Source: Octopus vulgaris (lineage: Eukaryota). Taken from it: a DNA stretch of 64,000 bases. The stretch lies in the NCBI GenBank assembly GCA_951406725.2, contig OX597825.1, positions 8,246,001 through 8,310,000 of the forward strand, written 5' to 3'. Below the pieces are notes generated by a model, which did no database searches, had not been told where the DNA came from, and saw only the letters and a list, made by a program, of their open reading frames with translations. Shown here piece after piece: positions 1,528-46,262 of this stretch. The position numbers and the translations under genes were made by a program. Numbering within the stretch: position 1 is the stretch's first letter; every line of letters starts with the position of its first letter.

Positions 1528-1575
1528 CAGTTTGAAAACAGCCATCGAAAAGCTCGAAACTCATTATAGTAACTG
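1528..1575 (+). ncRNA. Degenerate type I hammerhead-like motif, U3-A8 core variant
   Basis: Stem I CAGT(1528-31)/ACTG(1572-75); core TTGAAAA(1532-38); stem II AGC/GCT with a C:C mismatch at 10.1-11.1; GAAA(1556-59); stem III ACT/AGT; GUA triplet with the cleavage site after 1571. Confidence 0.5.
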
Positions 1576-3975
1576 TAAACATTATCATTAAAGTATAAAT
1601 TATCCCCTCAAAACCCATCTCTACTAAGTTTTCAAATGTATATATATATATATATATATATACACTCACTGAGACGTATATGTATATTGAAACTGTCAAA
1701 AAAATATTTGCTGTTATATTTAATACAACAAATAGAACAAATGATGATATGAAGATATTTTATAAGACTTTATTGATGCAATATTTATGTAATTGTACGG
1801 TTTCACTTTCTTGGAAAGATACTCAAGATTATGCAATCTATGATCGTATAATTTTTACATCTGACGGATTTTGGAAATGCTCTAATCCCATTATAGAAGT
1901 CGATGAAAACAAGAGAGATGATTATTTCTGTTATTGACGCTGACAGGAGATGTAATGTGAGGAGTGTCATATTTTTTTGTTAGTCATAATGGTAATAAAT
2001 GTAAATCTAATCCTTTTATCTTGTTTTAATAAAATGTAATTAATATTAAGTACCGTTCTTGTAATCAACGTTCAGTGTGTTCATTTGAACGTATTTAGTA
2101 TTTTGCAAACTATACATTTTATTTATCCGAAATATCTGCATCTACTCTACTCCATTTCATCATTATTCAATGATAAGTACTTACTGTTTGTCTGATATAA
2201 ATTTAACTGCACCCCGAATAATTTGCAACATGTATTACATTTATGGATGCCACTTACTTTTCATACATGAAATTTATTGAATGATTTCACTGAAATTATT
2301 TTCGTCTGGCAAAAAGTGGCTGTGACCAAAGGTAAGAACTGATGTCCTTCGCCAGTTTTATTTTAACGAAGAGTTGTTTTATGCCAGCAGTTCACCACTG
2401 CATTTAATTTAGATTTTAGGTTACAAGGCAGGTATTAGGTACTTCAACTAGATGATTTTTTCATCATGCAACCATTACAACACTGTCATTCTGATATTGG
2501 CCTCCACATGAGATAAATAAGTTGAATTGTAACAAGTGTAAAATTTTGAACAATAGAATTTATAAATGAACAGAACCGAAGGTCTGTTTCCGAAAATGTG
2601 ATTAATAATCTCAAATATAATCTCACAAATATCGAAAGAGAGATTTATGTAAATATTTTGAGTGAATGACTGTTTACGAGTATGTAAACAAAAAGAATAA
2701 TTTTTAGGCCATTAGTTTACGTATGTTTTTCCTCACTTTATTAGGATTTTGCTTTCCTTTTAACACGTTTTGTTATGCGATGTATTTTGACTATAAATAT
2801 TCCAAATCCTTGTTTTGCAATATCCCTTAGAGAGTAGCAATTCCTTACAAATTATGACACACTAATAAGGCTCGAAAAATAGGTGCCGTTAATTTCAATT
2901 TACCGATATCGGGCATACTCGTAATTGCATGATCATATTTCAGTTAAATTAGTTTCTGCAGAGATCTTCGTTTTGTTTGCGTATTACATGTATTTCATCG
3001 AATTAAATGGATATCTTGATATAAAGAAACCAACCTTTAGAAAGTTGGCTAACTGTAACAAATTGGAATAATAAACGCCTTCAATTAAAACTTTATTTGG
3101 CGAAAAAGCTCCCCGGCGAAAGATACGAAAAGCATCTCTAATTAATTAGCGTTGCAAAAATAATAGATACGAAGATACCAAAAAAAAAAAAAAAAAAAAA
3201 GAAAGTGTTGCGAGAAACTACAACGGATATTAGTAAATTCTAGTAAATTCTTTTTTAACGTCAGTTTATTTGATGTCTACAATAATAGCCGATTCCATAG
3301 ACCTGCCATCCACAACACATTTGAATCTGCAAAGCAAACAAGACAGTAGCAGAACACAAATAGGAAAAGGAAGAAATTAATTATGACTCATTTATCTGTC
3401 TAGACCCTGGTTTTATAGTTATCACTTGTTATAAACTAGACTGACCAATGCCAATTGATACGGAACAGACTAACTTTTAAAATTAACATTGATTGAACGT
3501 ATTTTCCATAAAAGACAGGCTCAATTGACTTCCTTTCTCAGACATTTCAGTAAATCTAATTTCTGAATTCCTTCAATTACCATGCACGCACACTGACCAA
3601 CGTGCAAACACAGGAAATCACAAAGCCACATAAGCATTTAATAACTCCATCTTTCTGCTCTCCCCACTCGCTCTCTCTTTATCTACACACTCTCACTTTC
3701 TCTCCCTCGCCCCCTTTCTCTTTTTCTCTCTCAGTATATATACATACACACACACACACACACAAATATATATATATATATACATATATACACATATATA
3801 TGTATGTATATATATATTATATATATATATGCGGGTATATATAGGCGTATGTACATGTATTCATATATAGATATATATACGTACACACACAGATATATAC
3901 ATATATACACACATATATATGTCTGTATATATATATATTTATATATATATATTTATTTATTTATATATATATGTG

Positions 3976-4025
<50 letters not shown>

Positions 4026-4041
4026 GGCGTGTGTACATGTA

Positions 4042-4079
<38 letters not shown>

Positions 4080-5024
4080 TACACACAGACACACACATAC
4101 AAACCGTCCTATGGTGCAACAGCGCCACGGTATTTAGCTATGTATGTATGAGATTCGATTGAAACCATTGAGTAAATTATAGTGTATCTTTGCAATATTT
4201 ACATGACTATTTTTTCTAGTAAGTAACCATACTTATCGTATTTTTCTGTGACAACTGAGGCCTACCCCGATAGCATAAATGTAGCACACACGTTTCTATA
4301 GTATCTACTAAATAACATATTTCTCCATCTTTTCAAAAGAGATTATCAAGAAATAATTTCTATCAAGGCGTCTCCAGTCTACTGCTTCCGATCATATAAC
4401 AACTTTAAGTAGTCCAAGCGCTGATATCATTGACAATTGCAACAGTAATTTCTTTCAGAGCTTCTAATGTTAAAATGGTAGATATACTTATATATTTATT
4501 TTCTATAGGCGTTAGCTCACTTATTTTATAGTTATGGACATCCGGCAATATTGCTTAAACAGACTACAATCAGATAAATAATGATGTATATGATATATAT
4601 ATATTTTGTCTGTGTGGCTAAGACTATGTGCTTCCTTTCAACCTTATGCTAATAAACACATACGTATATATCTACATACAGATCCCCATTCGTATACATA
4701 CACGCAGATACACACACACACACGTCTAGATATATATGTAAATATATGTATATACATGTAGATTATATAGACACTACAGAGAATCATTGATCGGCTTGCA
4801 CAGAATGTCTACACTAGATTCACATATATCTATGATTGTGTATAAACATGGTAACAACGCGAAGTTGTCTGGCGTCCGTTGCATACATGTTAGTTTTACA
4901 TATATTCAAACACACACGCGAAAGCACAGAAACAGACACACAGAGAGACACACACAAACATACAAATATATGCAAGCATACACACACAAAAGCACACACA
5001 CATACACACATACACACACACACA

Positions 5025-5217
5025 AATTCCCTTCCGAGCCCAAGGGTACTAAGACCGATTTCCCGGAATATGTGGCTTATATATTCTCCCCAACCAGAAG
5101 CTGGACGTGATTCCGGTCCATCGCAGAATTATTAATTTTTCTAGCTGACGCAACGATTCGAAATCATAATCATACGGTCATGAGTACGTTTTCCCTAACC
5201 ACTAGGCCACGAGCCTC
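5025..5217 (-). mobile_element. Degenerate, internally deleted tRNA-derived SINE
   Basis: Minus strand begins GAGGCTCGTGGCCTAGTGGTTAGG (A-box-like), has a B-box-like ATTTCGAATC, and ends ...GGGAAATCGGTCTTAGTACCCTTGGGCTCGGAAGGG. Confidence 0.6.
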
Positions 5218-5514
5218 TGCATATACAAACATGCACATCCATATGTTCTGATGGAACTTTATAAACTACTCGTGGGAATGATGTTATAGTAACTTCGGGT
5301 GACTGGCCAAAATAGAATCAGGAATTGTATTTCTGTTATATAATATGTTTACTGGAATATTTGTTTCAATATTTCTCTCTTCGTAGGGTCTCTCCTCATT
5401 GAAATTTCTATAATTTCTTTCTAAATATTTTGTTTTATAAGGTACTCATCACATAAGATTCTCAGTATCATAGTGGCCTCTGGTAATAGGAACTGTATGT
5501 TGTTGATGACTTAC

Positions 5515-5615
5515 TCTTGCCAGGAAGTGCTGAGTTGTCATTACCATTCTTCTTCGTTTCTTCATTGCCCATCGTGTATTCGCCGCCACTCACGTTTTTG
5601 CGTGTACATGTATTT
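5515..5615 (-). CDS. Candidate isolated internal coding exon, product unknown
   Basis: Minus strand tttcag|101 bp|gtaagt. Only one frame is open (NTCTRKNVSGGEYTMGNEETKKNGNDNSALPGK) and GC is above the flanks. No homology recognised. Confidence 0.3.
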
Positions 5616-7400
5616 CTGAAATTCTCTATCAAGTTTAAATACTATGTTAAAAATAGAAACACAGATCTCAGATTGCAATGCGTAGAATATATTTGTAGTT
5701 CTTTGTGGTCGTTACTTGTGGTGTTTGCTACGATCAATATTGAAATTTATCTAATCGAAGGCGATCATTTATAATTTTGAATATTCTGTTTGAGTGGACG
5801 CTTAACCTTATAGTTGCTACTTTCTTCCGATGCATTTTTGCAATTTCTAAAATGCGTGAGTAAAGCCTATCGGAAAGCTAGAAAAATCCAAGTTTATGAG
5901 GTATGTCTACGGAAGCTCGAAGGATACCCCTGTAAGAAATTGGAATTCACTTAGAACCAATCCCTAGGATAATCTAATTTAGTTTTTTCGTCCACGACAG
6001 TACCATTATTTCGTTTGCTAAAATTGCCAGAAGAAATACGATAGCAGATGCTGGAAGCACGAATTACAGCCGAGGATTCCAAAATGCCTTCTGCTTGATT
6101 CGATTCATTGCGATGAAATAATGGAAATCAGAAAATATATCATATGGAACCGTAGTTTATATTGAGAGTTCTATTGATATTCACCCCAAAGCCGCAAAAG
6201 CTGAAGATATCTTTACTGATGGGGAAAGAAATTCTTTTGAAAACATTAAAATAGTACTCGAGAAAGATACAGTAGTAATTGTCTACATTTCTGCAATAGT
6301 AGTAGAATATGGTATTGAAATGTCTACACGTGACCAATCCATCGGGTTCGCACTCATTAAAAGGAATGGACAAACAATAAAAGGAATGGACATTGCTTTG
6401 AACTAACTGCACAAAGCGATCATGCGGACGAAATTGCGTTGTTACGGTATTGAGTTAAAAGGGGGAATCTAACGTGTCTAAGAGTAGATATTACATTTGC
6501 TCACATTACAGCTGTCCACACTTTAGCACTTTAGCAGATACAATTATCAAAGTAGAACATAAGTCGAAAGAAGTGAAACATTTTCAGCATGTCATGACCT
6601 AGATAACGACTTCAGAAAAAGAAGATTAATGACAGCGCAGCTCAACGTACAGCATTGTCTAACATACAGCAACAATACTGTTTTCTCCATTGTTTAGAGA
6701 TTGTTGATGCTAGATACTACGGCATACACACAAAAAGAAAACGCTTCAAAATATCAGTTGGACATTGCATAAACTAGATTATTACCAGCAACACTATGAG
6801 TACAAACAATTGTAATATAACATAAATGCCAAAACAGCAGGAATGGCAAGCAACTTGTGGAAACGAAGATTAGCTTTTATGGAGTTTATGAGATAGTTGT
6901 TGCTAGGGTAACTTGCAGTAAGAGATGAGGAAGGTTGCACTGTTTTAACTACATCAATGCACACGTAATTGACACTGTCATCAATTTGAATTAAAAATCT
7001 GGCCAGATGGAGGTCGGTTTTGGGAATATTCATGTTCATTTATAAAAAGGAAAAAATACACACGCAAATACACTTACACGGACATATGCAGACAAGCATA
7101 AGCATGAATTTATATTTGCATATATTTGTGAACACCTGTACGTAAGCATACATATATAAATGCATTAACCTATCTACATATATTAATATATGATATATAG
7201 TGTTTGTTTGTGTATGCATGTATATCTGTGCAGAAATGAACGCCTGAATAAAAACGTATCTGGTGTCCATGGATATTACAGATTGGATTCTAATCATCCC
7301 ATGTATGCTCACATGTATATCATGCGATAAGAGGAAACACGCGTAGCGATGCATTTGGATATTCCAAAATTTTATCCATGGGTCATTATTGTTATTAATG

Positions 7401-7466
<66 letters not shown>

Positions 7467-7489
7467 AATGTATGTATACGGCAGATAAA

Positions 7490-8290
7490 ATACTCCGAGA
7501 TCCATGGACGAGTTCTGTCCAGCGGTCGCTGTCCTTTACGATCGCTGCCATGTCCTGTGCTCCCAGATACAGGAAGTCCTCAACCAAATCTAGTGGCTTC
7601 CTGTCTACATTCATAATTTGTTTTGGCTTCTTAACGTTCTCTACCAGACGTTTCATCTTAATTTCATTCATTTTCAACCTCACACTCATCGACACAGTCT
7701 GCCTCCCGCACTTTGTTTGTCACCAGAACTACGTCGTCAGCAGCTTCAGCATCTAATATCCTTTTAGACTTGATCCTCCTCCTCTGAGCTGGCGCTACAA
7801 GAAAGCCAGAGTCCTAGTGTTCCACCAACGCAAGAGGCATACAATACTCCACCACGATGATAAAAAAAAGGTAGGGAACCAAAGTATCTCCAGGATAATG
7901 AATGACCTCTGGTGTTGTGTCGAACAGTGATATCAGGTCCACTATCTTCTTGGGTAATCCATAAGACTTTAAGATCTTCATCAAACAGTGACGGTTTATA
8001 GGATCAAATGCCTTCCCAAAGTCAATGAAAACCACTAAAATATCATTCTTAGCATTAGGAGGTGACTGCTGGTTGATCCTCCTTCTCTGAAGCCGTTGTA
8101 CCTGAGGTTTTGTCCCAGAAACTGGTTGTCCCTGAGGTTTTCCATTTCCGGCTGAATCCTGCTAAGGGTCATGCTGCTGAGGGTTTTTCCATGAGTGACA
8201 TCAGTGGGATCCCTCTATAGTTGTTGGTGTTAGAGAGATCTCCCTTCTTTGGCGCTGGAACGATGCTACTGATGCTCCACTGATTCAGAG
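7490..8290 (-). mobile_element. RTE-type LINE reverse transcriptase fragment (decayed, internally deleted)
   Basis: Minus-strand motifs IVPAPKKGDLSNTNNYRGIPLM, VFIDFGKAFDPINR..L..ILKSYG.P, GDTLVPYLF and LDLVEDFLYLG are typical non-LTR RT motifs; frameshifts are present. Confidence 0.88.
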
Positions 8291-8911
8291 CAACTCCTCG
8301 ATTTTTATATTAAATGCTTTTTCTTCCGAATCGATAATTAACAACGAATTGTAGACTTTCGGCATTTAGTCACAACGCGGGACATTGTGGCTCCTGATTT
8401 CAGATAAACTATATCTTTGGATAATGCGATGGACATAACTTATTTCACACCTGCGAAGATTTAAGATGAAGGTTAGTATTCCTTTGTACAAATTATGGTT
8501 TTATTTCCGCTGCTATGTTATTTTGAATAAGATGTAAAGATAATTGCTTTGTCAAAATTTATTTTCGTTAAGAAATTTAAAGAATAAATTTACAAAGAAT
8601 TATGGGGAGACTAAATTAATTTTATTCAACGTTACTCTAGCTGCATGAAATTTTCAATCTCCAAATTTTAATAAGATTTATTTCGAGCTTATGAAAATAA
8701 TAAAAATATTAAGACAAACATCTGCAAGATTTGGGGGGAAATAGTAAGCTATTAGATGAAGTCAACATTTGAAATTACATTTGATAATGATGGGGAAATA
8801 CCTATAATTAAAAGGTGCGAAGAACTAATGTTATTTTTAGAATAATATGAAAATGTGTAGGAGTTAAGATATTTAACTGCACTGTGTGTGTTTCTAAGGA
8901 AAACATTGGTC

Positions 8912-9075
8912 TCAGATTTTGGCACAAGGCCAGCAATTTCGCGGAAGGGATTGTGTCCACTACGTCGAATCCAGTGCTCAGCTGGTATTTATTTTAAAGA
9001 CCCTGAAATGACGGGGGGATTTGAACTCTGAACGAAAACCTGCTAAGCATTTTGCCCGCCGTACTAATGATTCGC
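8912..9075 (-). mobile_element. Degenerate SINE, group B
   Basis: Reverse complement resembles the group B body and tail (GAGTTCAAATCC...AATAAATACCAGCTGAGCACTGG...GCTGGCCTTGTGCCAAAAT). Confidence 0.6.
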
Positions 9076-9643
9076 GGTCTTTGTTCGTTTTGCTCGATAT
9101 TATCGAAATAAATAAATAAGTAAATAAATAAATAAGTAAAATGGAAATCATTGTCAAATTCTTCTAGAGAATGACCCAGTGTGATTATTGCTTGTTTTCA
9201 TTATGTCCTGGAAATGAACCCGCAGCTTTAACAATATATATTGAAGCCACATTTTGTAAATGCATCATCTGTTATGTGAACAACTCTCTCGTGTTAAAAC
9301 ATTGAATTTCAGACTTGTTTAGTTTGTATATATCATGACAAACTTTTACGAACCTCTTTTGCGTTCTTTCCTGTCATATAAAACACTCAAGATGTCACAC
9401 GTTGGTAATTTGAATATAAAAAACAGATTCAGAAAAGAGAAAAAAAAAAAAATATATATATATATATAGAATGATTTCATTTGCGTGAAACACGGAAAAA
9501 AATTTCTGAAGAAACTACATTGAAAATAAAACAGTTGCCAGTGGATAATAATATTGGTTATATCTATAGAACGTGCAAGAGTGACGGTTTTCAAAATATG
9601 ATTGAGCGTCGGACAAACAATTTGCATTATTTCTTCCGGGATA

Positions 9644-9920
9644 AGGCGAGAGAGTGGCAGAATCTTCCTCACGCTGAGCAAAACACTTAGCGTCTGTCTT
9701 TAGATTCTGGGTTCAAATTCTCCTGAGGCGGATTTTTTGCCTTCTCATCCAACCGAGGTCGATTCAATAAGTACCAGTTATACACTGGAGTCGATGTCAT
9801 CGACAAAATCTCCCCCCCCCCATATTTTTGTGCCTATAATAGAAACAATTATTTCTTTTGTTATAAGGCTGCGAGCTGGCAGAATAGTTAGCATGCCAAA
9901 CAAAAAATTAACAGAAATCT
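9644..9920 (+). mobile_element. Group B SINE (9644-9850) plus a second head fragment (about 9866-9920)
   Basis: GGCGAGAGAGTGGCAGAATC...GGGTTCAAATTC...GCCTTCTCATCC...GGTCGA..AATAAGTACCAG; second head GGCTGCGAGCTGGCAGAATAGTTAGC. Confidence 0.65.
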
Positions 9921-10192
9921 AACCGATATTATAGCTGCAATGAACAGGATTTGGACAAAGGCTATAAGGAAGGAGATTATGGTATTAAGTGTTGACTACA
10001 TGTCCGTATGAATTGAAGAGACAATAAATGGTAACGCAGAATGGTTCATGGAATAGGATTGTCAACAAACACATACACGAAAAATTCCCATTTGTCAGGG
10101 ACGTGTTTCCGTAGTCTACCACTATCTTACGAACCATACATAATTACATACATACAAACATACATACATATATCACTATACACATGTGTATG

Positions 10193-10228
<36 letters not shown>

Positions 10229-10298
10229 ATGTATTATATAATATATACATATACATGTGAACATATATACATATTTATATGAGTGTTTGTGTGTGTGC

Positions 10299-10331
<33 letters not shown>

Positions 10332-10336
10332 TAGAT

Positions 10337-10368
<32 letters not shown>

Positions 10369-10399
10369 AGATAAACACGGACACGTGCACACGCACATA

Positions 10400-10433
<34 letters not shown>

Positions 10434-10570
10434 TACGGTTGATGGCAATAAGCCAAGATATGATATTTATAATCGTGCAATTTTCCTATACGATACGAAT
10501 AACTGCATATATAATGATTGAAGTAAATAATCATCATTGGTTGACGTATAAATGGTGTGTTTTATCTGAA

Positions 10571-10856
10571 ATTAATGATTGTATGCGATAATGCCACTGT
10601 CTCATGAATATACAGTTTCTCAGTTTCTCCAACATCAACTGAAGAATTCAGTATAGAATCATTTGGTATCAACTAAAATACAGAATAAAAATTAACCGTA
10701 AAATCGGGACAAATGAAACGTTATCCAAAGTTATCCAGAAACTATAATGAACCAAACGAACATAAACCCACGCGTACACACAGACGTGCCCACACATACA
10801 TGGAAATAGAGGTATGTAATTAGATTTGTATGATTATAAAGATTCATAGAAAATGA
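10571..10856 (+). repeat. 286-bp direct repeat, copy 1
   Basis: Colinear with 13469-13754, no indels, about 11 substitutions by hand count. Confidence 0.92.
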
Positions 10857-11610: not shown

Positions 11611-11650
<40 letters not shown>

Positions 11651-18284: not shown

Positions 18285-18342
<58 letters not shown>

Positions 18343-18601
18343 ACAATTGCAAAGTGGAAGGTGTTTATAACGCATTTAAGAAACATACAAAAACCGTTAG
18401 ATCCACTTCAACATTTAAATTTAATTTGCCAAAACATTTTCGTCGATTTGGACTGCGACCTGTTCACTGACAAAATTCCGTGCTGCGGCACGGTATTTTG
18501 TGTGTTTCTTAAATGGCTTATAAACACCTTCCACGCTGCAATTGTTCTCGTTCCATCATACGATCTCAGATCAGGTCACTTGCTATGGAAGTACATCTCC
18601 G

Positions 18602-18604
<3 letters not shown>
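18343..18604. mobile_element. Fold-back (inverted-arm) short element carrying a hammerhead-like motif, probably Penelope pLTR-derived
   Basis: Arms ACAATTGC..GTGGAAGGTGTTTATAA..CATTTAAGAAACA / TGTTTCTTAAATGGCTTATAAACACCTTCCACGCTGCAATTGT; central CCGTGCTGCGGCACGG; same family as 40075-40358; lies between (GATA)n and (TA)n. Confidence 0.8.
18425..18474 (-). ncRNA. Type I hammerhead-like motif, G3-C8 core variant
   Basis: Minus strand TTTGTCA-GTGAACA-G-GTCG(CAGTCCAAAT)CGAC-GAAA-ATGT-T-T-TGGCAAA: 7-bp stem I (one G.U), 4-bp stem II, near-palindromic stem III AATGTT. Confidence 0.65.
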
Positions 18605-24935: not shown

Positions 24936-24939
24936 ATGG

Positions 24940-26298
24940 CTCGCCACTTCATTCGACGTTGATATCCCCTCACCACTATCCACACCGCCCTTCCCAGAGC
25001 ACGTTCCGTGGATCGTGCATATGCTATCTCTTCCTGCACCCATCTCACCGTCTCTCTGTTTTCCTTCACATCCCACCCCACCACCCCACCTCTTCAACAC
25101 ACCATTCTCTGGGCCTCCCGGCGACTCCAGTTCGACCTTTCAACTTCACCCATCTTCCCTAACCGACCTCTCCCCTCCTTCAAACGAGCCCACAACATCC
25201 GAGACCTCTTGGTCCACAATTTCTTCTCTAACCTAACGTCCCAACCCGGCTCGTTCCCTTGGCCTCGCTCACGCTGCTGCACTTGCTCTTACCACCCTTC
25301 TCACCGGCACCATCATCGACCCTATCACATCACCGACTCCTTCACCTGCACTTCTACCAATGTAATCTACTGTATTTCCTGCTCTCCCTGCCCTTCTCTA
25401 TACAACGGGCAAACGGGACGCCGCTTGGCCGACCGGCTCGTGGAACGCCTCCGGGGCATCTGACTCGGCAATTACACCCCGGTCTCGCGCCATTTCTACT
25501 CTACCGGTCATTCTTGCAACAACTGCCTTTGTTAGGATTGTCTTTGAGCAGGGGCCTTCCGGACTCCCGTTTGCAACGTGAACATGGATTAATCTCTCTT
25601 CGCTCCTTTGCGCTACATGGGTTTAACCCTCCTCCCATGTTCATCTAACCTCTTCCCCTCTTCATCTAACCTCCTCCCCTCTCATCTCTCCCACCCACCT
25701 TTCTTCAATTGCTCCGACTCCTACTTCGTGTCTTCACTCCTACTCTCCTTTTCCCTTCTTTTTACTCCTACCCACTTTCTCGCTTCCCCCTTCATCGTCA
25801 CCCTTCCCTCGAAACTCCACCCCACCCCTATGCAATCTAACCGCAACTTTCCTATCCATCCCATCACACCACACCACACACCACTACACCATACACCACC
25901 ATACCACACAACACATCACATCACACCAGCACTGACCACTTCCCAGCCCCACATCTACATACCTACACATCCGCACATGCACACGTCAAGGTCACCAGAG
26001 CTCTTCCACACGCACATACATACTCTCTTGTACACACGCACGCGCACCTTCGTTTTGAGATCACCACTACTTTATTAACTCCCTTTCTTCGTAGCTCTCC
26101 TGTGTGACGCGTCATGATAGATCACTAGCCACTACACATTCTTTATGTTCTCTCCTTGTTTCTTTCTGTGTTCTTTTCTGTCGAAGAGTGTAGGCTCCGA
26201 ACGTTAAAGACTTTTTCACTTCCCGAGCGTTAAACTAATACATCTGTTTGTTGTCTACACCACCTGTCTTCGTATTTTGTTTTGTTGTGCATTCTCCC

Positions 26299-26368
<70 letters not shown>

Positions 26369-26600
26369 ATATATATGTTTATATACACCTATGTTGATTC
26401 GCTAGCTTCTGCACGCATTTTTTTCTCTCCTTGTTTCTCTCCGTGTTTCTTTTCTGTGTATCTTTCTGTTGAAGAGCGTAGGCTCAAAACGTAAAATACT
26501 TGTTTTATTTATATTCCTGGGCGCCATACTAATACAATTGTTTGTTTGTTTTCCACCTGCCTTCGTCTTTTGTTTATTTTCATAAAGCTTCCCGTTACAT
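24940..26600 (+). mobile_element. 5'-truncated Penelope-like element (Neptune-type): GIY-YIG endonuclease remnant plus two tandem pseudo-LTRs
   Basis: Within 25008-25463: PSFKRAHNIRDLLVH, Cys-rich linker RCCTC, and FTCTSTNVIYCISCSPCPSLYNGQTGRRLADR (GIY-YIG signature). A C-rich 3' region follows, then related repeats at about 26110-26300 and 26400-26600, each with a hammerhead-like core. Confidence 0.88.
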
Positions 26601-27134
26601 ATATATATATATCCATACACATGTACATGTAAAGATATTCATATATTTATGAATATATGTCTGTATTTGTGTTTGTAAGTGTGTATATGTATGTGTTTGT
26701 GTGTGTACCTGAAACTTTAGAAATCATTCTTATATATGAAATATGTCGACGCACATAAAGACTATTTACACTTTCATTCGTACTTTCGTAGTCTGTTAAC
26801 TCGTATGTCAGGCCAACAACTTGCTATCTTCTTCAAATTCATGAACCATATTATTACCCGTCTTTCAGTATGTGGTATTTATACAGAAAATGAATCCTTG
26901 TTCTCAAGACAATAGGAGGAACAGTGATTCGCATTCATACCCTGAAGAGTGTAAATGCTAGTTTTTCATTGTATTTCTGCCCTCATATTTTTTATATCCT
27001 CTGCAGAAACATCTCAAAAACATACTCAGAGTTTCCCGTTTCTATTTGTCAGACAGTTCTGCTTTCTTTCTTTATATGTATATATATAATCATAATGATA
27101 ATACTAATACTACTACTACTAATAATAATAATAA

Positions 27135-27207
27135 TCAGCGTCCAATAATACTATATTTGTTCCACGTCCTCGCTTTGGTGTGGATATTTGTGCTTTCTTG
27201 TTTGGAT

Positions 27208-30718: not shown

Positions 30719-30830
30719 ATAAACAACAAACAGATGTATTAGTTTAACGCTCGGGAAGTCTTTTACGTTTCGAGCCTACGCTCTTCGACAGAAAGGAACA
30801 CAGAAATAAACAGGGAGGAAAAATAGAAAC
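30719..30830 (-). mobile_element. Penelope pLTR fragment with family-consensus hammerhead-like motif (30760-30795)
   Basis: Minus strand CTTT-CTGTCGA-A-GAGC(GTAG)GCTC-GAAA-CG-T-A-AAAG; flanks match the pLTR copies at 26110-26300 and 46078-46262. Confidence 0.8.
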
Positions 30831-36399: not shown

Positions 36400-36447
36400 G
36401 TCTCCGATGAAGGGATATAATAAATATCCTTGAAACAGCTGTAAGAC
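36400..36447 (+). ncRNA. Type I hammerhead ribozyme-like motif (near-canonical, U4C) in a probable pLTR remnant (about 36150-36515)
   Basis: Stem I GTCT/AGAC; core CCGATGA; 8-bp stem II AGGGATAT(AATAA)ATATCCTT; GAAA; perfectly palindromic stem III ACAGCTGT; GUA triplet with cleavage after 36443. Confidence 0.75.
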
Positions 36448-36656: not shown

Positions 36657-36710
<54 letters not shown>

Positions 36711-37192
36711 TCTGTGAATGTGTATGTGGCGCGCTGCATACACACACTGATAAATATGTGTATACAAATGAGTGTATGTGAGCATGTGTGCTTAATAAGT
36801 ATATGGAGGCTCTAAATGATATTTCCACATAAAACTGAAATGCGAATACACATACAGCCACTTGCATCAGCAACTGCAAAAACATACCGATAGAGACAGA
36901 CAACAAAAACATTAAACAAATACCTAAAATGCCGATGAAAACCAGGTCTAAGTAGGGGCTTCAGTTATTTCTCATTTTGACGTGTCATGATACTTTTGGA
37001 ATAAACTTTATCATAATGGATAATCAAGAAAATGATGGTTGTCTTAAAACAGGCCGAGAATGCACTACTGTTTAAAAGGCACTACGGCTTTACTGTCCAT
37101 CTCTCTGTTTATTTCTCTATCTACCTACCTACCAGTCTACCTCCTTCTCTACACACGAAGACCCAGACACATAACATATTATATATATTATT

Positions 37193-37582
37193 TTATTCTT
37201 TTACAATTTTCGGTCATCTGACTGCAACCATGCTGGAGCACCGCCTTTACTCGAGCAAATCGAAACGAGGACTTATTCTTTGTAAGCCTCGTAATTATTC
37301 TAGCGGCGTGCTTTGCCGAATCGCTATGTTACAGGGACATAAACAAACCAGCATTGGTTGACAAGCGATGATGTTGGGAGAACAAACACAGAGACACAAA
37401 TACGCAAACAAACACACACACATACGACAGTCTTCTTACAGTTTCCGTCTAACAATCCACTCACAAGGCTTTGGTCGGCTTGAGGCTATAGTAGAAGACA
37501 CCTGCCGAAGGTGCCACGCAGTGGGACTGAACTCGAAACCATGAGGCTGGTAAGCAATTTACTTACCACACAGCCTCTCCTT
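37193..37582 (-). mobile_element. Group A SINE (diverged)
   Basis: Reverse complement aligns over its full length with 57159-57574. Confidence 0.85.
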
Positions 37583-38522
37583 TATTTATTTATTAAATTA
37601 TATATATATACATGAATGTAAATATATGTATATGTATGTGTATATGCACATATATACATAATGTATTGAAGTACATACATATATTTGTAATAAAATGCTG
37701 ATGTATACAAATATATTCGTGTACGTATATAAAACTATATATGTATTCATATATATATATATCTATATATATATATATGTAATATATATATATATATACA
37801 TATTTATGTATGTGCTCACAGACACACACACAGACACACACACAGACACACACACACACAGACACACACACACACATATACAAAAGCCTCCAGTGTTTTG
37901 ACTGATTATTGGTTTTAAGTGTTTTCCTAGAAAAACTTCCTTATATCATAGCATATAATAAGTGGCTTTTTCATTCATTCTTCCATTCAATCAGCATTAA
38001 TCAATGATTCCACCCTTAGCAGTCACTAACCTCAGCTTCCCCCACCCAACCTATTTTGCTCTATTTAACTCGACACTGCATTCATCTCTTTGATTAGTTG
38101 CAGGCTTCTTCTGGCTGCTCCTCGGTTTTGTCTCCACCAGCCATTATAATTAAACTTTCATTTCCCTCCTATATATCTATTATCCAAATTTTCCAATACT
38201 TTCCCCCTTTTTTTGTTTAGTTTTGCATGTAGATATACGTCTATATATACGCATGCGCGAACACTCACATCTGTGTCTCCGTTTCTTATCAAACACACAC
38301 ACAGTCACACACACACATATATTTGCATGCATACATACATACAGGCATACATGTACACATGCTTACATGTAATATATGTGGGTTCACATAAGTATATATC
38401 TATACACACACATAACATATATATATTATGTACATATATACACATATACACATATATATATGCATATGAATACATACATACACATTTATAAACATATATA
38501 TAAAGGTACATAACTGTCAATC

Positions 38523-38553
<31 letters not shown>

Positions 38554-38562
38554 CTATCTCTC

Positions 38563-38629
<67 letters not shown>

Positions 38630-38698
38630 GCATTTATACATACAAACACACACATGTACAATGCATACACGCAATATATGTGGGTGTACATAAGTATG

Positions 38699-38740
<42 letters not shown>

Positions 38741-38888
38741 CATTCATATAAATACATAATATATATATATATTATGTACATATATAGACATATATATAAA
38801 TATACATACATATATATATATATATGTATATAAATATATACATATGCATATACATATATACAAACGTACATATCTATCTATATGTATA

Positions 38889-38983
<95 letters not shown>

Positions 38984-39398
38984 ACACATACTCATATATA
39001 TATATATGCATTTTGACACACAAACACACACATGTTCATGTGTTTATGCCTCACCCTTCTCTCTTACTCTCTCAATCTCCATATATATGAGTGTGAGCGT
39101 GTGTGTGTGTGTGTGTACGCATGTAATATGTTAGTGTTCCAAATGCATTTGAGAGCAAAATAATGTAAAGCATGAATGGTTCCATAGACAATTGTCTTTC
39201 AAAGGATTTACTACTTTGTTGCTTTTTTTTTTATCGAATTAAAACAACAACAACAACAACCAAAACAATAACATCACGATGTATATACAACAATAACCAT
39301 GTTCAATTTGAACGAGGACAGGAACAATCGCTCTCACTACTCCTCAGCGCAGTTCTGGTTCTGCCGCTGCTAACGCCCACTACCAGTACTACTACTTA

Positions 39399-39469
<71 letters not shown>

Positions 39470-40039
39470 ATGATACTACCACCACCACCACCACTACTAC
39501 TTGTGGTACTACTACTACATCAATAACAACTACTACTACAACTAGTAGTGTAGGTGTTCCCACTTCTGCTGCTACTGTCAATACTACTGTTACTACTGCT
39601 GCTGCTGCCGCCTCCCCCTCCATATCCACTATCACCTCCGCCACCATTTCCGTCGGCATCCTCATCATTTATTTGGCCGTGTTCTTCAGTACATAAACTA
39701 CAGCTCATATTTCCATAATTAAGCTTTCTTCTTGAGTGCCATGATGTCCCAAAATATTACAAACGCCTCTTTAGCATTTGAATGCCATTTATAAGTTTTA
39801 ATCTATATTTTGTTTTCATACAGTAAAAATATATTTTAATATATTTCGTTGTTAACACCTTTCAACTTATAGAGTAACAGGAATTTGCCAGTATGTGTAT
39901 ATCTACTTATCTATCTATATCAATACACATATCTATATGAGTGTGCAAGCGTGTGTGCTTGTCTGTATCTACGTATATATATATATTATTATATTTCGGA
40001 ATGGTCATTTTGCCAGTTTAGCACAACAAATATATAAAC

Positions 40040-40074
<35 letters not shown>

Positions 40075-40077
<3 letters not shown>

Positions 40078-40358
40078 CGGAGATGTACTCGCATAGCAAG
40101 TGATTTGATCTGATATCGTGTGCTGAAACGAAAACAATTGCAGCGTGGAAGGTGTTTGTAAGCCATTTAAGAAACACACAAAAGCCGTTCGATTCGCTGA
40201 CAAAAATCCGTGCTGCAGCACGGATTTTTGTCAGTGAACAGGTCGCGGATTTTAGCGACGAAAATATTTTGCCAAATTAAACTTAAATGTTGAAGTGAAT
40301 CGAACGGCTTTTTTGTGTTTCTTAAATGGCTTACAAATACCTTCCACGCAGCAATTGT
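40075..40358. mobile_element. Fold-back short element with a perfect 38-bp central palindrome and a hammerhead-like motif
   Basis: CTGACAAAAATCCGTGCTGCAGCACGGATTTTTGTCAG (40197-40234); outer inverted arms; inserted in (TA)n; homologous to 18343-18604 in the opposite orientation. Confidence 0.85.
40227..40276 (+). ncRNA. Type I hammerhead-like motif, G3-C8 core variant
   Basis: TTTGTCA-GTGAACA-G-GTCGC(GGATTTTA)GCGAC-GAAA-ATAT-T-T-TGCCAAA: stem I 6/7 bp, stem II 5 bp, palindromic stem III AATATT, UUU triplet. Confidence 0.68.
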
Positions 40359-40409
40359 ATATATATATATGTATATATATATGTATATATATATGTATAT
40401 ATATATATG

Positions 40410-40474
<65 letters not shown>

Positions 40475-40493
40475 GTATGTATATATATATATA

Positions 40494-40556
<63 letters not shown>

Positions 40557-41177
40557 ATGTATCTATGTATGTATTATCTCTTCCTCTATGTGTTATTATG
40601 ACTAAATGGGAGAGTATTCAGCAAATGCTTGAGGTGTTTCAAACAACTTTTAGTCTGAACGACTGGACAATGCAGTAATGTCTTTGAATCTCGGAGCCAG
40701 GGGAATTGGCAGAGTTCTGAGATCGGTGATTTTTAATGGATGCAGCAACGTAAAAATGATGGCCGTATTGCAATATCATCTTTCGTGAGAGAGATGTCCG
40801 TAAAAAAAAAACAAAGAAAAATGTGAGTGGGAGTGTCATGGATTATTTACCATTTAATAATAAATATAGATAAAATGAATTGTGATTCATATTGCAAAAC
40901 AAAATATTACATATCTAAGCGATTTCATTAGACATAACATAGAAAGCAAAGGATTTGTTATTTATATTAAGGAATGATGTATCTTCATTTTTGATCAATT
41001 ATTTTCGACATTTGATCAATAATTACGCCATAAAAAATGGCGTAACAAGGTCTCGTGTTACACCAGCACTGTATTGTACATATTATTATTAATATATAGG
41101 ATTTTATTTGAAAGAAAGATGATCATTTTATTTCGGAGGTGTAAAAGCCATTGCACAAATTAAACGTACATGTAATG

Positions 41178-41590
41178 CAGCGAGTTGGCAGAATCGTTAG
41201 CAAGCGGGGCAAAAGGCTTGGCGTCATTTCGCCTGAGGTGCACTTTGTCTTTCATCATTTTGGGGTCGATGAAATAACTACCAGTGGATTTGCTCCCACC
41301 TACCAAATTTCAGTCCTTGTACTTATAGCAAAAAACATTAATTAAACGTACAAGTAAGGTGACGAGCTGGAAGAATCGTAAGCACGCTGGGCGAAATGCC
41401 TAGCAGTCTTTCGTCCGTCTTCAAGTTCTGAGTTCAAATTTCGCCCAGGCCGGCTACGCCTTTCATTCTTTCGGGTGGGTAAAAGAAGCACCAGTGAAAC
41501 TGTGGTGTCGATGTAATCGGGGACATGCCATCCCGCCCACCCCACTCCCCCAAAAATTCAGGCCTCTTGCCTTTTGTACAAAAGATTTAT
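41178..41590 (+). mobile_element. Two adjacent group B SINE copies (about 41178-41335 with deletions; 41357-41590)
   Basis: GCGAGTTGGCAGAATCGTTAGC and GGTGACGAGCTGGAAGAATCG heads, GAGTTCAAATT B box, GCCTTTCATTCTTTCGGG body. Confidence 0.75.
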
Positions 41591-42169
41591 TATACGTGCC
41601 AGAGTCATGTGGGTAGGCAGAAAAAATGCTTGAAGCATATCATCAACGTGTTTTTTTAAGAACAAACGCAAGTGCTCCCCCACCCCACTATGAATGGATG
41701 CAGAAGTCATAGAAAAGCAGCAATGTGACTGGGTGAACAATGTGAGGTATGACCTGGAAAGAAATGACCAGGAGAGGAATAATATGAAGGAGATTTTTGA
41801 TAACCTGTACATCGAGAGAGGGAGGCCAACTGTCTAAGCAAAAGAGTGAGAAATTTGAATATCAGAAGTTGCTGACTTCTCATATATCAGAATACTTTTA
41901 CAAAATCTTCGGGGCAAATCTGTGTTGCTTCTCATTCAGTTGAAACAGCTTCATTGAATCTTCAGCATTATGCAGGAGTCGGATATGATACCTGTCAAAC
42001 TCTACAATGGTTGATATATGCTGCTAGAACATGCTGCAACGGTACACAGCATCCTGGCCGATCACAATCTGCAATACGTGTTGCACCTGCCATACGTGTT
42101 GCACCTGCCATTATTTGCAGCAGATTGATGTACAGGAACACCACTGCACGTAAACTCGCATACAGGCAT

Positions 42170-42670
42170 ACATGCATTCATTCGCTCATACATATACACA
42201 TAGATACATACCAACGTACATTCATACATATATACATCCATATATTTATACATAGGTACATGCATTCATTCATTTAAACGTACATAAATACAGCATACAT
42301 TCATAGATATATACATGCTTTCATATATAAGTACGTACATACATACATTCATAGATATATACATCCATATAGTTATACATAGGTACAAGCATTCATTCAT
42401 ACATATATACATCCATATATCTATACATAGGTACAAGCATTCATTCATTTATACGCACATAAATACAGCATACATTCATAGATATATACGTGCTTACATA
42501 TATAAGTACGTACATACATACATACATTCATACATATATATACATCACTATATTTATACATGGAAACATGTTTTCATTCATTTATACGTACATAAATACA
42601 GGTATACATTCATAGATATATACACGCTTACATACATACATACGTACATACATACATACATTCATACATA
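42170..42670. repeat. Higher-order minisatellite built from CATA/TA/CATT motifs
   Basis: Recurring ATACATAGGTACA.GCATTCATTCAT and CATAAATACAGCATACATTCATAGATATATAC blocks. Confidence 0.8.
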
Positions 42671-43589
42671 TATAAAACATACACATCATTATGTGTTTGT
42701 ACGTGTGTCCGTTTGCTTTCAGAAACGCGACCAAAAATTTCTTACCGTAGAAGTAAAGCGTGATTTATTGCAATGCCGAGCTTAGGCTCTGATTCTATTG
42801 AGAATAATCTCATCTATAGACGAAACACTAGTACGTCGGATGATGAAATCTGTCTGAAACAGTCCATAAATAATCTATACTAACAGCCATTAAAGCTTCT
42901 GCTTTCCTTTCCTGTTTAATGCAGTTTAAAATTTGTTAACGTGGTCAGCTGCAATACATAATGGCGTTGGCTTGAGGTTGGAGGAAATGATAAAAAGACC
43001 AACTGAATATTACATTAGTGAAGACTCTCGCATCGAACATTAACCATTGAAAGGCATTGCCGCTGGTCGTACAAGTTGCCGATTCATTGTTACACAATTT
43101 AAAATATTTGGAAGACAAAAAAAATCCAGTATCAGAATCATAATTTAAGCGATAAATGAGGCATTAAAACAGAGCTATACTTTTCCGCGAAACACATACA
43201 TGTTTCCCCGGCAACCAAATCTATACATCATGTATTAGGATTCATAGCCAGCAGCAGCAGCAGACCTACGATGGTAAAGAAGATAGTCAGTCTCTGATTC
43301 AGTGGACAGCAATAATCAACTAAATGTAAGTACTTGCATATGGGCGAGTATGTGTGTTCCTTAGTGAGAATATGGTTGCGCGTTTGTGTGATGCGTATCT
43401 GGTTAAATGGAGGCAGAATTGAAAAGACTGTTAAACCAGAATAATATCTGTGAGGTCGCTGTTGCTTGAGTGGAAAACGTGACTAAGTACCAATATTAGA
43501 TTTGTAAGAAAGCTGTAATTAATTTCACCCGACACTGCATGCAGGATTCCGAGAGCCTACAGAGCCGGGCTCTTCATATCATATCATTC

Positions 43590-43635
<46 letters not shown>

Positions 43636-43671
43636 GATATATATATGTATGTGTATGTATATATGTATATA

Positions 43672-43719
<48 letters not shown>

Positions 43720-43832
43720 TATATGTATATATGTATATATATATGCATGTATATGTATATATATATATATAGAGAGAGAATGATACATAGATATATATGC
43801 ATACATACATCTCTCTCTCTCTCTCTCTCTCT

Positions 43833-43866
<34 letters not shown>

Positions 43867-44744
43867 TCACAGTCATAGAGACACTCACACAATTATAAAT
43901 ACATGTATCTATTGATATAGGCACATATATGTAGACATATATTTATATACATGCTTATATGTATTATATATATATGTATATATACACGTAGTTTATATGC
44001 ACATATATGTTTCGAAGTTATAATAACTGCAGGCATGCGCAGATACAAGCACACAAACACATACACGCATCAAAACACGCATACAAGCACACAAACACAC
44101 ACACACACACACCGGCACATACACACACATATTCTAGAAGTTGACCTCAACAATATTTTCCTATTTTTTTCCCATTATATTTGCAGTATTCATGTGAACA
44201 GGAATGCCCTAGAGAATGCTCTCCTCCTCATCTTTGAAAATATTTCGTGACTAATTCCCGTAATAAATTATTTCCCAGGGATTACATAACACTGATATAG
44301 TCTTTTTATGCCTGAAGTAACTACCACTGTATGATTTTATATCTAGCCATCAACGAACTGTCATAAGTATTTTAATCGATTATCTGCTACTAGTTTGTGC
44401 ACGTAGTTTGCATATTTTTGCATGTTGAACTAGCGAATCCACTTTATTGAATAGCGTGGAATGTACATATTATGTTGCTCAATACCTGCAACACCAAAGA
44501 ACATGCATGAACACACACACATTCACACGTACACACACGCACACATAGATATATGTACATATATATGTATATATGTGTACATATATATTTATTTTATATA
44601 TATTTATATATAATACATATATGCAAGTATACATAAATTTATATCTACATATATATATATATGTATATATGTATATATATATTCATGTATACATATATAT
44701 ATATATAGATATATATATAAATATTTATATCTTCATGTTATATC

Positions 44745-44805
<61 letters not shown>

Positions 44806-46077
44806 TTATATAATCATACATATATGTCTGTGTTTGTCTATTGTTTATTTATATACATGTATGTATGTATAAGGAATACATCAAATCTATGGCTATTAAT
44901 ATTTTTACATAATGTTCATGTGTTTCACACTACAGGCAAACATTGATTATGCGAAGTTATCTCTGAAAAGTTTTTCTTTATTGTACATGGACTTTTTTCC
45001 TGGATGCATTAGCGCCAAAATATTTTCAATAGAAACATTATTAAGTTTGCTCCCACCATCACACCTCACTGTAATTGCCGATTTCTGTCTATAGTAACGC
45101 GAATTTGCAAGATGATATATTGGGATATCCCCCTGGAGTAGGCCTGGTGGACAGCTCTTTGCCTATGTAACATATAACCTACTGTCCGGCGAGTCCTTCT
45201 ACAGCTCGGAGTAGATTCAGCCTTGCTACATGGGCCTGTTTTAACAAAACTCTTCCTCAACACTTTTCCATTTCGGAGTGAGTTAGAGCTGAACTATCAG
45301 ACCCAGACTGATTGACCGTTAGTTTGAAATATGGGGTATCAGCAGAATGTCCTCTAACCACCTACAACGTTCGGGCTATTGTGTATATAAATGTGTAATG
45401 AAAACCAGTAATAGTTGCAGGTCTTACATACGGACAACAGTAAATCTATTAAAGCGCAGCAACACCGTATACAGACCCGACGAGTTGTAAGTAGTCTTCG
45501 AAATTGTATTGGGTCAAGGAAATACTATTTGGTTGTCGTGTATTAGCAAAGTTGTGCTAAGGCAATTTCAGCCAATTAAAGCTTTGCACGTCAGTATTTC
45601 GTGTATTTTCTTTTTCATATTCATTTAGATTAATAAGGTTGAAAATAATTAGCTGGCAGTTAGCAGAAGACATCGTCGCAATCAACAGCCATCCTCGGCT
45701 AGTCATTGGAAGGACGCTGTCGTTTAACAGTATTTCTTTATCTTGAACATCTGTGTTATTTCACCGGCTTAACGCAGTAATCTCCGGGATTACATTACGC
45801 TCGCCTGTCGAGTCTAATCATTCCCTATTGACGGAATGAAGAGATTCCTGTTTAATCCCTGTTTATTTCTTACTACTTTTATCGTGGTATGTTTCTACCC
45901 ATTTGTGTAATAGTAAGTCCAAAGGCCTTCTTTGACTCCTACATACGGCAACTCGCTACTCACATTGCAACCCAAATAAATTATGATGTTTGTCATAATA
46001 TAGCCTTCTGAAGTATTTTCTCAATGCGTCACAGATGCATTGTGTATTTATTTGGCACCTTCTGTCCAGCATTCGCC

Positions 46078-46262
46078 ATGATAGATCGCAAGCCACTAAA
46101 ACTTTTCTATTTTCTCTCCCTGTTTATTTCTGTGTTCCTTTCCGTCGAAGAGCGTAGGCTCGAAACGTAAAAGACTTTCTCATTTCTCGAGCGTTAAACT
46201 AATACATCTGTCTGTTGTTTACACTGCCGTTTTCGTCTTTTTTTCTTTTACTAATTCTCATT
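46078..46262 (+). mobile_element. Solo Penelope pLTR with hammerhead-like motif (46138-46173)
   Basis: CATGATAGATC..AGCCACTA start shared with 26113; CTTT-CCGTCGA-A-GAGC(GTAG)GCTC-GAAA-CG-T-A-AAAG. Confidence 0.82.

What the first reader, a model, noticed from the sequence alone, without database searches (positions are those of the whole stretch)
1528..46173. Four unrelated hammerhead-like ribozyme families with a covarying 3-8 core pair (C-G, G-C, U-A)
Seen: eight motifs (1528, 18425-, 26174, 26462, 30760-, 36400, 40227, 46138) share the type I order stem I, 7-nt core, stem II, GAAA, stem III, UH, stem I (GAAA is mutated in the two ~26-kb copies). Stems and flanks are unrelated between the four families. 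Cores read TTGAAAA (U3-A8), GTGAACA (G3-C8), CCGATGA and CTGTCGA/CCGTCGA (C3-G8), so positions 3 and 8 remain Watson-Crick in every family. Established: C3-G8 is a tertiary pair in the active hammerhead fold, compensatory swaps can retain cleavage, and Penelope-like element pLTRs carry minimal type I hammerheads with palindromic stem III (Cervera and de la Pena 2014). Inference: this genome hosts a diverse set of non-canonical self-cleaving RNAs on short mobile elements that CUGANGA-based searches would miss.
Basis: partly seen in the sequence, partly recalled or inferred. Interest (0 to 1): 0.85.

Follow-up and report, generated by a model that had tools for sequence, protein, structure and literature searches.

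The report
Core-swapped hammerheads of Penelope retroelements
These eight motifs are hammerhead-ribozyme folds carried at the ends of Penelope-like jumping genes, a known arrangement, but one short family has the key core base pair flipped (G-C instead of C-G) and a recently active family has a changed core letter, so they are likely weak, natural variants of a self-cutting RNA whose cutting is untested.

Summary
All eight motifs are at the stated coordinates and exceed chance (4 strict hits vs 0.03 per shuffle). They are minimal type I hammerheads of Penelope-like elements (PLEs). Family C flanks intact RT+GIY-YIG ORFs as direct repeats, A flanks broken ones, D has a weak link, and B is a ~215-nt ORF-less mini-element inserted solo or as head-to-head pairs. 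Pair 3-8 is Watson-Crick in the majority of all 11 families tallied. Much is published: PLE hammerheads, palindromic stem III, the extra base after A9, natural U3-A8 (same UUGAAAA core), U4C, and partial rescue by engineered G3-C8. I found no report of natural G3-C8, but the key 2017 paper was unavailable, and this scan noted G3-C8 in two findings on other genomes. Best new result: B (G3-C8) has a sister family J (U3-A8); of 22 core and stem II columns four differ, forming two compensatory pairs. Family C keeps A6U in recently active elements. Cleavage is unshown; RNA reads from a related organism showed no cut-site pile-up. New variant of a known kind.

The parts
1528..1575 (+). Family A hammerhead fold: core UUGAAAA (U3-A8), C.C mismatch then stem II, GAAA, 4-bp stem III, predicted cut after 1571; 3' end of a truncated PLE
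   Evidence: relatives flank RT+GIY-YIG fragments
18342..18604 (-). Family B mini-element, older subfamily, head-to-head pair with one arm internally deleted; ends approximate
18425..18474 (-). Family B hammerhead fold: core GUGAACA plus G (G3-C8), 4-5 bp stem II, near-palindromic stem III, predicted cut after 18432
24936..25523 (+). Decayed C-terminal part of a PLE ORF (linker, Cys knuckle, GIY-YIG endonuclease), upstream of the family C motif at 26174 on the same strand
   Evidence: tblastn with the intact L142 ORF: 63% identity, E 1.4e-59; translation
26174..26209 (+). Family C hammerhead fold in the 3' pLTR of that element; core CUGUCGA plus A (A6U); GAAA broken, so predicted dead
26462..26497 (+). 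Family C, young subfamily (core CUGUUGA), within a solo pLTR piece 26391-26612; G12A, predicted dead
   Evidence: 92.9% to the L142 pLTR
30760..30795 (-). Family C hammerhead fold, intact, palindromic ACGU stem III, predicted cut after 30764
36400..36447 (+). Family D hammerhead fold: core CCGAUGA (U4C), palindromic ACAGCUGU stem III, predicted cut after 36443
40075..40357 (+). Family B mini-element between (TA)n runs: inverted arm with tail (its ribozyme deleted), central palindrome, short sense arm
40227..40276 (+). Family B hammerhead fold, G3-C8, palindromic AAUAUU stem III, predicted cut after 40269
46138..46173 (+). Family C hammerhead fold, core CCGUCGA (copy-level U4C), predicted cut after 46169

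Best explanation
The motifs are minimal type I hammerhead folds in the terminal repeats (pLTRs) of Penelope-like retroelements and of a short ORF-less derivative, and they likely act as slow ribozymes that would cut only when two copies pair through the palindromic stem III or the element's protein helps. Shown: the fold, the link to RT+GIY-YIG ORFs (C, A; weak for D), the PLE-type insertion shape (fixed 3' end, tail on one arm, inverted 5' copy, TA targets), and compensatory change of pair 3-8 between sister families B and J. Inferred: selection acts in the few source elements and keeps the active-site geometry, including pair 3-8, while tolerating rate-lowering changes (G3-C8, U3-A8, U4C, A6U, mismatch at 10.1-11.1). 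Also inferred: genomic copies are made from uncut RNA (B copies start 22 nt upstream of the core), family B borrows a PLE protein in trans, and the window's copies are inert passengers that now decay.
For: Family C motif lies as direct repeats 4.4-4.5 kb apart around ORFs of 784-1080 aa in L141, L142, L143, L145; RVT_1 above cut-off in the 3 of those scanned and GIY-YIG at E 0.007, below cut-off, in 2; these four elements are 98.5-99.7% identical and 5' and 3' pLTRs are 100% identical in 3 of 3 compared. Family A: endonuclease end about 1,200 nt upstream on the same strand in L095, L111, L115; inverted pairs around ORF pieces. All four families share a 3' end about 95-170 nt past the core. Positions 3/8: B G-C 59 of 60, C C-G 41 of 43, D C-G 24 of 24, J U-A 24 of 26, I U-A 4 of 4, A U-A 27 of 35 with a loose pattern (by alignment U3 34 of 34, A8 31 of 34 with 2 gaps). 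Unbiased 400 kb with 3 and 8 left free: 15 hits vs 17 in 15 shuffles, pair Watson-Crick in 13 of 15 vs 6 of 17. B and J 3' flanks align (scores 43, 46, 55 vs shuffle mean about 21, 0 of 300 each; 79 of 117 identical); unguided MAFFT puts the cores in register and both variable pairs change on both sides in all 8 J rows. In 35 C-type cores position 7 takes all four bases while 3-6, 8, 9 stay at 30-34 of 35. Literature: a PLE hammerhead with C3G/G8C is partly rescued, cuts only with the PLE protein, and uncut RNA is the main template (PMC11167929); the G-C swap is the only rescuing double change in the CUGA region (PMC9901934).
Against: No cleavage shown. In three RNA runs of a related organism (about 6% of each read; 2166-3098 reads laid) there was no start or end pile-up at the B or C cut site and no circular joint, and both orientations were about equal. 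Single changes in the CUGA turn give low activity, and A6C gives under 0.1 per min, so A6U may be nearly dead. A head-to-head B pair folds into one hairpin of -261 kcal/mol that hides the ribozyme. Predicted homodimer minimum-energy folds did not reproduce the full hammerhead dimer for any of 5 examples, although stem III paired between strands in 4. B/J is one evolutionary event per pair, not many. C3-G8 to U3-A8 needs only two transitions. No autonomous partner was found for B, and D's ORF link rests on one hit at E 0.007. Family alignments come from the 30 best BLAST matches to the window copy, which biases them towards it.
Confidence: 0.68

Rival explanations
1. The hammerhead fold is kept as a structural part (RNA dimerisation through the palindrome, or a binding site for the PLE protein) and no longer needs to cut; pair 3-8 is kept for shape only.
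For: A6U persists in recently active elements; first pair of stem II is mismatched in A, D and the young family E; catalytic mutants do not affect insertion in vitro; no cut-site signal in RNA reads; Naiad PLEs spread without canonical hammerheads.
Against: G5, A9, G12-A14, A15.1-U16.1 and a non-G at position 17 are kept in the family majorities; the substitutions seen are mostly those known to spare some activity; the Anolis ribozyme also left no RNA-seq signal yet cuts with protein.
Confidence: 0.22
2. The variant cores are neutral hitch-hikers: mutations fixed in a few source elements after the ribozyme stopped mattering, with the 3-8 match arising by drift and transition bias.
For: U3-A8 is two transitions from C3-G8; few independent events (A, I, J, B); a published PLE row has U3 with G8 (Saccoglossus); window copies show plain decay (G12A).
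Against: G3-C8 needs two transversions from either C-G or U-A. Between B and J only 4 of 22 core and stem II columns differ, all in two compensated pairs, while the flank differs at 38 of 117 columns and loop II changes in length and sequence. All 4 families that lack C3 have the matching base at 8.
Confidence: 0.08
3. Family B is a retrozyme-like RNA replicon that is cut to unit length by its hammerhead and circularised.
For: Short, ORF-less, high-copy, carries a type I hammerhead; a preprint derives animal retrozymes from PLE pLTRs (part 1 only).
Against: No head-to-tail arrays: 44 of 64 cores have an inverted copy just upstream and 20 are solo, all starting upstream of the core rather than at the cut site; no circular joint in RNA reads.
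Confidence: 0.04
4. The motifs are chance matches in AT-rich DNA.
For: With 3-8 free and mismatches allowed the scan gives 5.7 hits per shuffled window.
Against: Strict scan 4 vs 0.03; each motif belongs to a repeat family with 270-2119 first-look candidates and a fixed place in PLE ends.
Confidence: 0.01

Closest known systems
Minimal hammerheads of metazoan PLEs (Cervera and de la Pena 2014, PMC4209133; main text parts 1-2 of 4 and part of supplement file 2 read)
   Same: Type I order, short palindromic stem III, extra base after A9 with G10.1-C11.1 (families B, C), place in pLTRs, mostly solo copies, opposite-strand pairs; U3-A8 variant with the same UUGAAAA core in a Schistosoma mansoni PLE; U at position 17 is common.
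   Different: No G3-C8, U6 or C4 core in the alignment rows I saw. Families A, D, E lack the extra base and have a mismatch at 10.1-11.1.
Short-stem-III hammerheads of PLEs that cleave as dimers (Lunse, Weinberg, Breaker, RNA Biol, PMC5785218; title seen in a reference list and summarised in review passages; text not held)
   Same: Same class and context; dimer cleavage.
   Different: Cannot tell whether it already lists G3-C8 or A6U; this is the main gap in the novelty claim.
PAc (Anolis Poseidon) hammerhead (Frangieh et al. 2024, PMC11167929; parts 1-2 of 4 read)
   Same: pLTR hammerhead, two 3' ends giving an optional tail, AT-rich targets, uncut RNA as template, no RNA-seq ends at the cut site.
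   Different: G3-C8 there is an engineered double mutant; here it is the natural majority. The intact ORFs here have a CX4CxxC linker, the mark of Neptune/Nematis rather than Poseidon.
Natural core variants of Perreault et al. 2011 (PMC3088659; section 8 and passages read)
   Same: Natural U3-A8, a change at position 6 (A6C), U4C, and U10.1.U11.1.
   Different: Rare, mostly phage or bacterial cases; no G3-C8 or A6U in the text read (figures not visible).
Non-LTR retrozymes of animals (bioRxiv 10.64898/2026.07.22.740005, part 1 of 5 read)
   Same: Short non-coding PLE-related repeats with type I hammerheads.
   Different: Retrozymes are head-to-tail tandem arrays; B and J are solo or head-to-head.

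Membership tests
Minimal type I hammerhead of PLEs | Order stem I, 7-nt core, stem II, GAAA, stem III, UH, stem I | tested here: met
   two window copies have broken GAAA
Minimal type I hammerhead of PLEs | Core consensus CUGANGA | tested here: not met
   majority cores UUGAAAA, GUGAACA, CUGUNGA, CCGAUGA; U3-A8 is an accepted published variant
Minimal type I hammerhead of PLEs | Watson-Crick pair between 3 and 8 | tested here: met
   majority in 11 of 11 families tallied, some with only 1-4 copies
Minimal type I hammerhead of PLEs | Short palindromic stem III | tested here: met
   B AAUAUU, C ACGU, D ACAGCUGU, E AGUACU; A has a 4-bp hairpin instead
Minimal type I hammerhead of PLEs | Extra base after A9 and G10.1-C11.1 pair | tested here: inconclusive
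   met in B, C, J; not met in A (C.C), D (A.G), E (U.U)
Minimal type I hammerhead of PLEs | Located in a pLTR of an RT+GIY-YIG element | tested here: inconclusive
   met for C and A; weak for D; no own ORF found for B
Minimal type I hammerhead of PLEs | Self-cleavage after position 17 as dimer or with protein | not testable with these tools
   indirect RNA-read test negative and weak
Penelope-like element (EN+, Neptune/Nematis type) | Single ORF with RT and C-terminal GIY-YIG, Cys-rich linker | tested here: met
   for the C- and E-linked ORFs; no tree was built, so the clade is by motif only
Penelope-like element (EN+, Neptune/Nematis type) | Direct or inverted pLTRs, 5' truncation, tail at one end, microsatellite targets | tested here: met
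   description
Non-LTR retrozyme | Head-to-tail tandem units each with a hammerhead | tested here: not met
Non-LTR retrozyme | Circular RNA joined at the cut site | tested here: inconclusive
   no such joint in three ordinary RNA-seq runs of a relative
Rfam hammerhead families | Covariance-model match | tested here: not met
   no hammerhead row at E<=10 for D, B, C; whole-window scan showed only 150 of 413 rows, none a hammerhead

The most novel reading that the evidence does not exclude
Family B is a 215-nt SINE-like parasite of Penelope elements carrying the first natural, working G3-C8 hammerhead, and with its U3-A8 sister J and the A6U, U4C and stem II mismatch families this one genome is a natural mutational scan showing that PLEs select for deliberately slow, protein-gated ribozymes.
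Probability: 0.3. Interest if true: 0.65.

Novelty: new variant of a known kind. Interest (0 to 1): 0.42.

Why it matters
What PLE hammerheads do is still open: they are nearly universal in canonical PLEs, yet weak in vitro and dispensable for insertion in the one reconstituted system. This genome gives ready-made test pairs: B versus J (G3-C8 versus U3-A8 in one lineage), family C versus its A6 sisters, and young intact elements with U4C or A6U cores. If the natural variants cut, the textbook core consensus under-counts animal ribozymes (order 100,000 motifs here by extrapolation from 15 hits in 400 kb). If A6U does not cut yet sits in active elements, the fold has a non-catalytic job.

Tried and rejected
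Whole-window repeat search and Rfam scan were swamped by microsatellites. Pfam on six short decayed ORF pieces gave nothing relevant; intact ORFs did. Search for an autonomous parent of B: 20 solo copies share no upstream sequence, and the 3 of 73 cores with a PLE ORF upstream belong to neighbouring insertions or weak hits; none found within the DNA held. Relatives of the A-linked ORF at 47-67% identity showed no readable hammerhead except one diverged A subfamily that keeps U3-A8 and C.C (L146), so the path from C3-G8 to U3-A8 was not traced. Stem I changes between B and J look compensatory in 2 of 3 changed pairs by hand, but the unguided alignment is one column off there, so I did not count them. 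Sequencing-run search: no RNA holder listed among indexed runs, which is no evidence either way. RNA read lay: no cut-site pile-up. Literature searches for natural G3-C8 or A6U and for hammerheads in cephalopods listed no such report; only listings were seen for most hits, and subscription papers, the 2017 RNA Biology paper, Przybilski and Hammann 2007 and supplement file 1 of the 2014 paper could not be read. Rejected: chance motifs, retrozyme arrays, decay as the source of A6U.
Full report
Observation. The window is AT-rich, microsatellite-rich DNA from a 2.8-Gb genome in 227 contigs; from recalled repeats I guess a cephalopod, which no call tested. A descriptor written after seeing them finds 4 with strict stems against 0.03 per shuffle (0 of 60 shuffles reach 4) and 6 against 1.2 with one mismatch (0 of 60); when 3-8 is free and mismatches are allowed the excess is small, 9 against 5.7, 3 of 60. 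BLAST of family queries against the window returned these eight core-bearing copies and two core-less pieces of another family.

Families. Own-genome searches gave 2056 (C), 346 and 1953 (B, two subfamilies), 2119 (D) and 270 (A) first-look candidates, 40 scored each. Alignments of the 30 best loci per family, plus stray copies in their flanks, are biased towards the window copy and include it. Their majorities: A, UUGAAAA, then a C.C mismatch, 4-bp stem II, stem III ACUC/GAGU; B, GUGAACA plus G, 5-bp stem II, AAUAUU, U17, 7-bp stem I; C, CUGUCGA plus A, with U6 in 39 of 39 rows, 4-bp stem II, ACGU; D, CCGAUGA, A.G mismatch at the first pair of stem II in 28 of 37 rows, ACAGCUGU. In an unbiased 400 kb (40 stretches of 10 kb) there were 5 C, 3 B, 1 E, 0 A and 0 D copies, roughly 35,000 C and 21,000 B genome-wide with wide error.

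Context. In the window, 24936-25523 is a decayed PLE C-terminus, 63% identical to an intact ORF (E 1.4e-59), followed on the same strand by the family C motif at 26174. Elsewhere the C motif stands as direct repeats 4.4-4.5 kb apart around long ORFs with RVT_1 and, more weakly, GIY-YIG matches and a CX4CxxC linker, the Neptune/Nematis mark described in PMC8557442 (passages). Four such elements are 98.5-99.7% identical with identical pLTRs, so A6U belongs to a recently active family and is not decay. Sister families with the same stem II ends and ACGU keep A6. Family A lies about 1,200 nt behind an endonuclease end in three distinct loci and forms inverted pairs around ORF pieces (the raw count of 9 of 32 includes the same copies in overlapping loci). 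Family D has ragged 5' ends reaching about 780 nt upstream and one weak endonuclease hit among 10 loci (E 0.007); 0 of 32 cores had a hit. All four have a shared 3' end, usually followed by TA runs. A further young family E (775-aa ORF, identical 4271-bp tandem units) has core CCGAAGA and a U.U first pair.

Family B. It is a unit of about 215 nt with a fixed 5' start 22 nt before the core and two 3' ends, about 149 and 207 nt from the centre. Of 64 cores, 44 have an inverted B piece just upstream and 20 are solo; the solos start at nearly the same place and share nothing further up. This is the PLE insertion shape with an inverted copy and a tail on one end, and the two ends fit the two RT start sites found for the Anolis element. 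I infer a non-autonomous element copied from uncut RNA. A head-to-head pair is predicted to fold into one long hairpin that hides the ribozyme; the single arm folds with stems I and II formed and the core open.

Covariation. In the unbiased sample, with 3 and 8 free, 15 hits were found against 17 in 15 shuffles, and the pair was Watson-Crick in 13 of 15 against 6 of 17. Tallies over 11 families give a paired majority in each: C-G in seven, U-A in A, I and J, G-C in B (E, H, I, K rest on 1-4 distinct copies). Family J (1156 candidates) is a relative of B: the flank after the ribozyme aligns with scores 43, 46 and 55 against a shuffle mean near 21 (0 of 300 each); three other arms gave 1, 12 and 96 of 300, two of them short arms that run into unrelated DNA, and two more were too short to test. 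Unguided MAFFT of 10 B and 8 J copies puts the cores in register. Of the 22 columns of core, extra base, stem II and GAAA, four differ: 3 and 8 (G-C to U-A) and 10.3 and 11.3 (C-G to U-A); 107 of 108 cells pair, and slid controls show no two-sided change. The flank differs at 38 of 117 columns. This is one event per pair, but G-C to U-A needs two transversions, and no unpaired change accompanies it. In 35 C-type cores position 7, the free position of the hammerhead consensus, takes all four bases (C 17, U 10, G 4, A 4; part of the U is CpG decay) while the others hold at 30-34 of 35.

RNA. No indexed RNA holder was listed. Raw reads of three RNA runs from coded organism B, not shown to be the window's species, were laid on a locus with one B and one C copy at 85% likeness: 2166-3098 reads each from about 6% of the run, both orientations about equal, 89% running on into unlike flanks, no start or end pile-up and no circular joint (cut sites). 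This fits passive read-through and is a weak negative; the Anolis study also saw no such ends although that ribozyme cuts with protein.

Mechanism. Most likely (0.68) these are slow, conditional ribozymes: the palindromic stem III lets two copies pair, or the PLE protein helps folding, and cutting trims precursor RNA without being needed for insertion. Selection in source elements keeps the geometry, including pair 3-8. The main rival (0.22) is a fold kept for binding or dimerisation without cutting; A6U in active elements favours it, since single changes in the CUGA turn give low activity (PMC9901934 passages; A6C under 0.1 per min, PMC3088659 section 8). Neutral hitch-hiking (0.08) explains U3-A8 but not the B/J pattern.

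Novelty. Published: PLE minimal hammerheads, palindromic stem III, extra base after A9, opposite-strand pairs and natural U3-A8 with the same UUGAAAA core (PMC4209133); U4C and U.U; partial rescue by engineered G3-C8, also in a PLE hammerhead. Not found in searches: natural G3-C8, A6U, or the A.G and C.C first pairs. The 2017 paper on short-stem-III hammerheads and one supplement file of the 2014 paper could not be read and may hold them. Two earlier notes of this scan report G3-C8 motifs behind PLE RTs in other genomes; I did not test them, and none exists for this genome. Verdict: real, correctly recognised, a new variant of a known kind; interest 0.42.

Noticed in passing
L137:1124-9666 (G000:C1:27840000-27849999): Very young PLE family E: intact 775-aa RT+GIY-YIG ORF in identical 4271-bp tandem units, dozens of equal-scoring copies; its hammerhead has U4C and a U.U first pair of stem II.
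   Followed up: partly
L019:2393-3115 (-): Another very young PLE type: 150 of 150 scored matches were 100% identical over 241 aa. Its 3' region has a hammerhead-like stretch with core CCGAAGA and an extra U before GAAA that my scan did not accept.
   Followed up: partly
L187:9737-9970; L175:6288-6417; L036:2637-2806: Other hammerhead families (H, J) also insert as near-perfect head-to-head fold-back pairs; such pairs would give long double-stranded RNA if read through.
   Followed up: partly
L034, L035 (family B pairs): The two arms of one insertion carry loop II sequences of different subfamilies, which suggests copying from two different RNA templates in one event or a mixed source element.
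   Followed up: no
families A, D, E versus B, C, J: Families without the extra base after A9 have a mismatch at 10.1-11.1 (C.C, A.G, U.U); those with it have G-C. Families H and K lack the extra base yet pair, so the rule is not strict.
   Followed up: partly
L161:8956-9085; L073:2537-2658; L003:2908-3037; L169, L173, L178, L179, L181: At least six further hammerhead families (F, G, H, I, K and singles) in flanks and random samples, several with canonical cores.
   Followed up: partly
window 62116-63042: Five tandem copies of a 184-bp unit, 94% alike; looks like a SINE-derived array by recall.
   Followed up: no
window 7375-8161 (-): Frames that read like pieces of a LINE reverse transcriptase; by eye only.
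   Followed up: no
window 27137-27172 and 52626-52677: 3' pieces of family F pLTRs without the ribozyme core.
   Followed up: no
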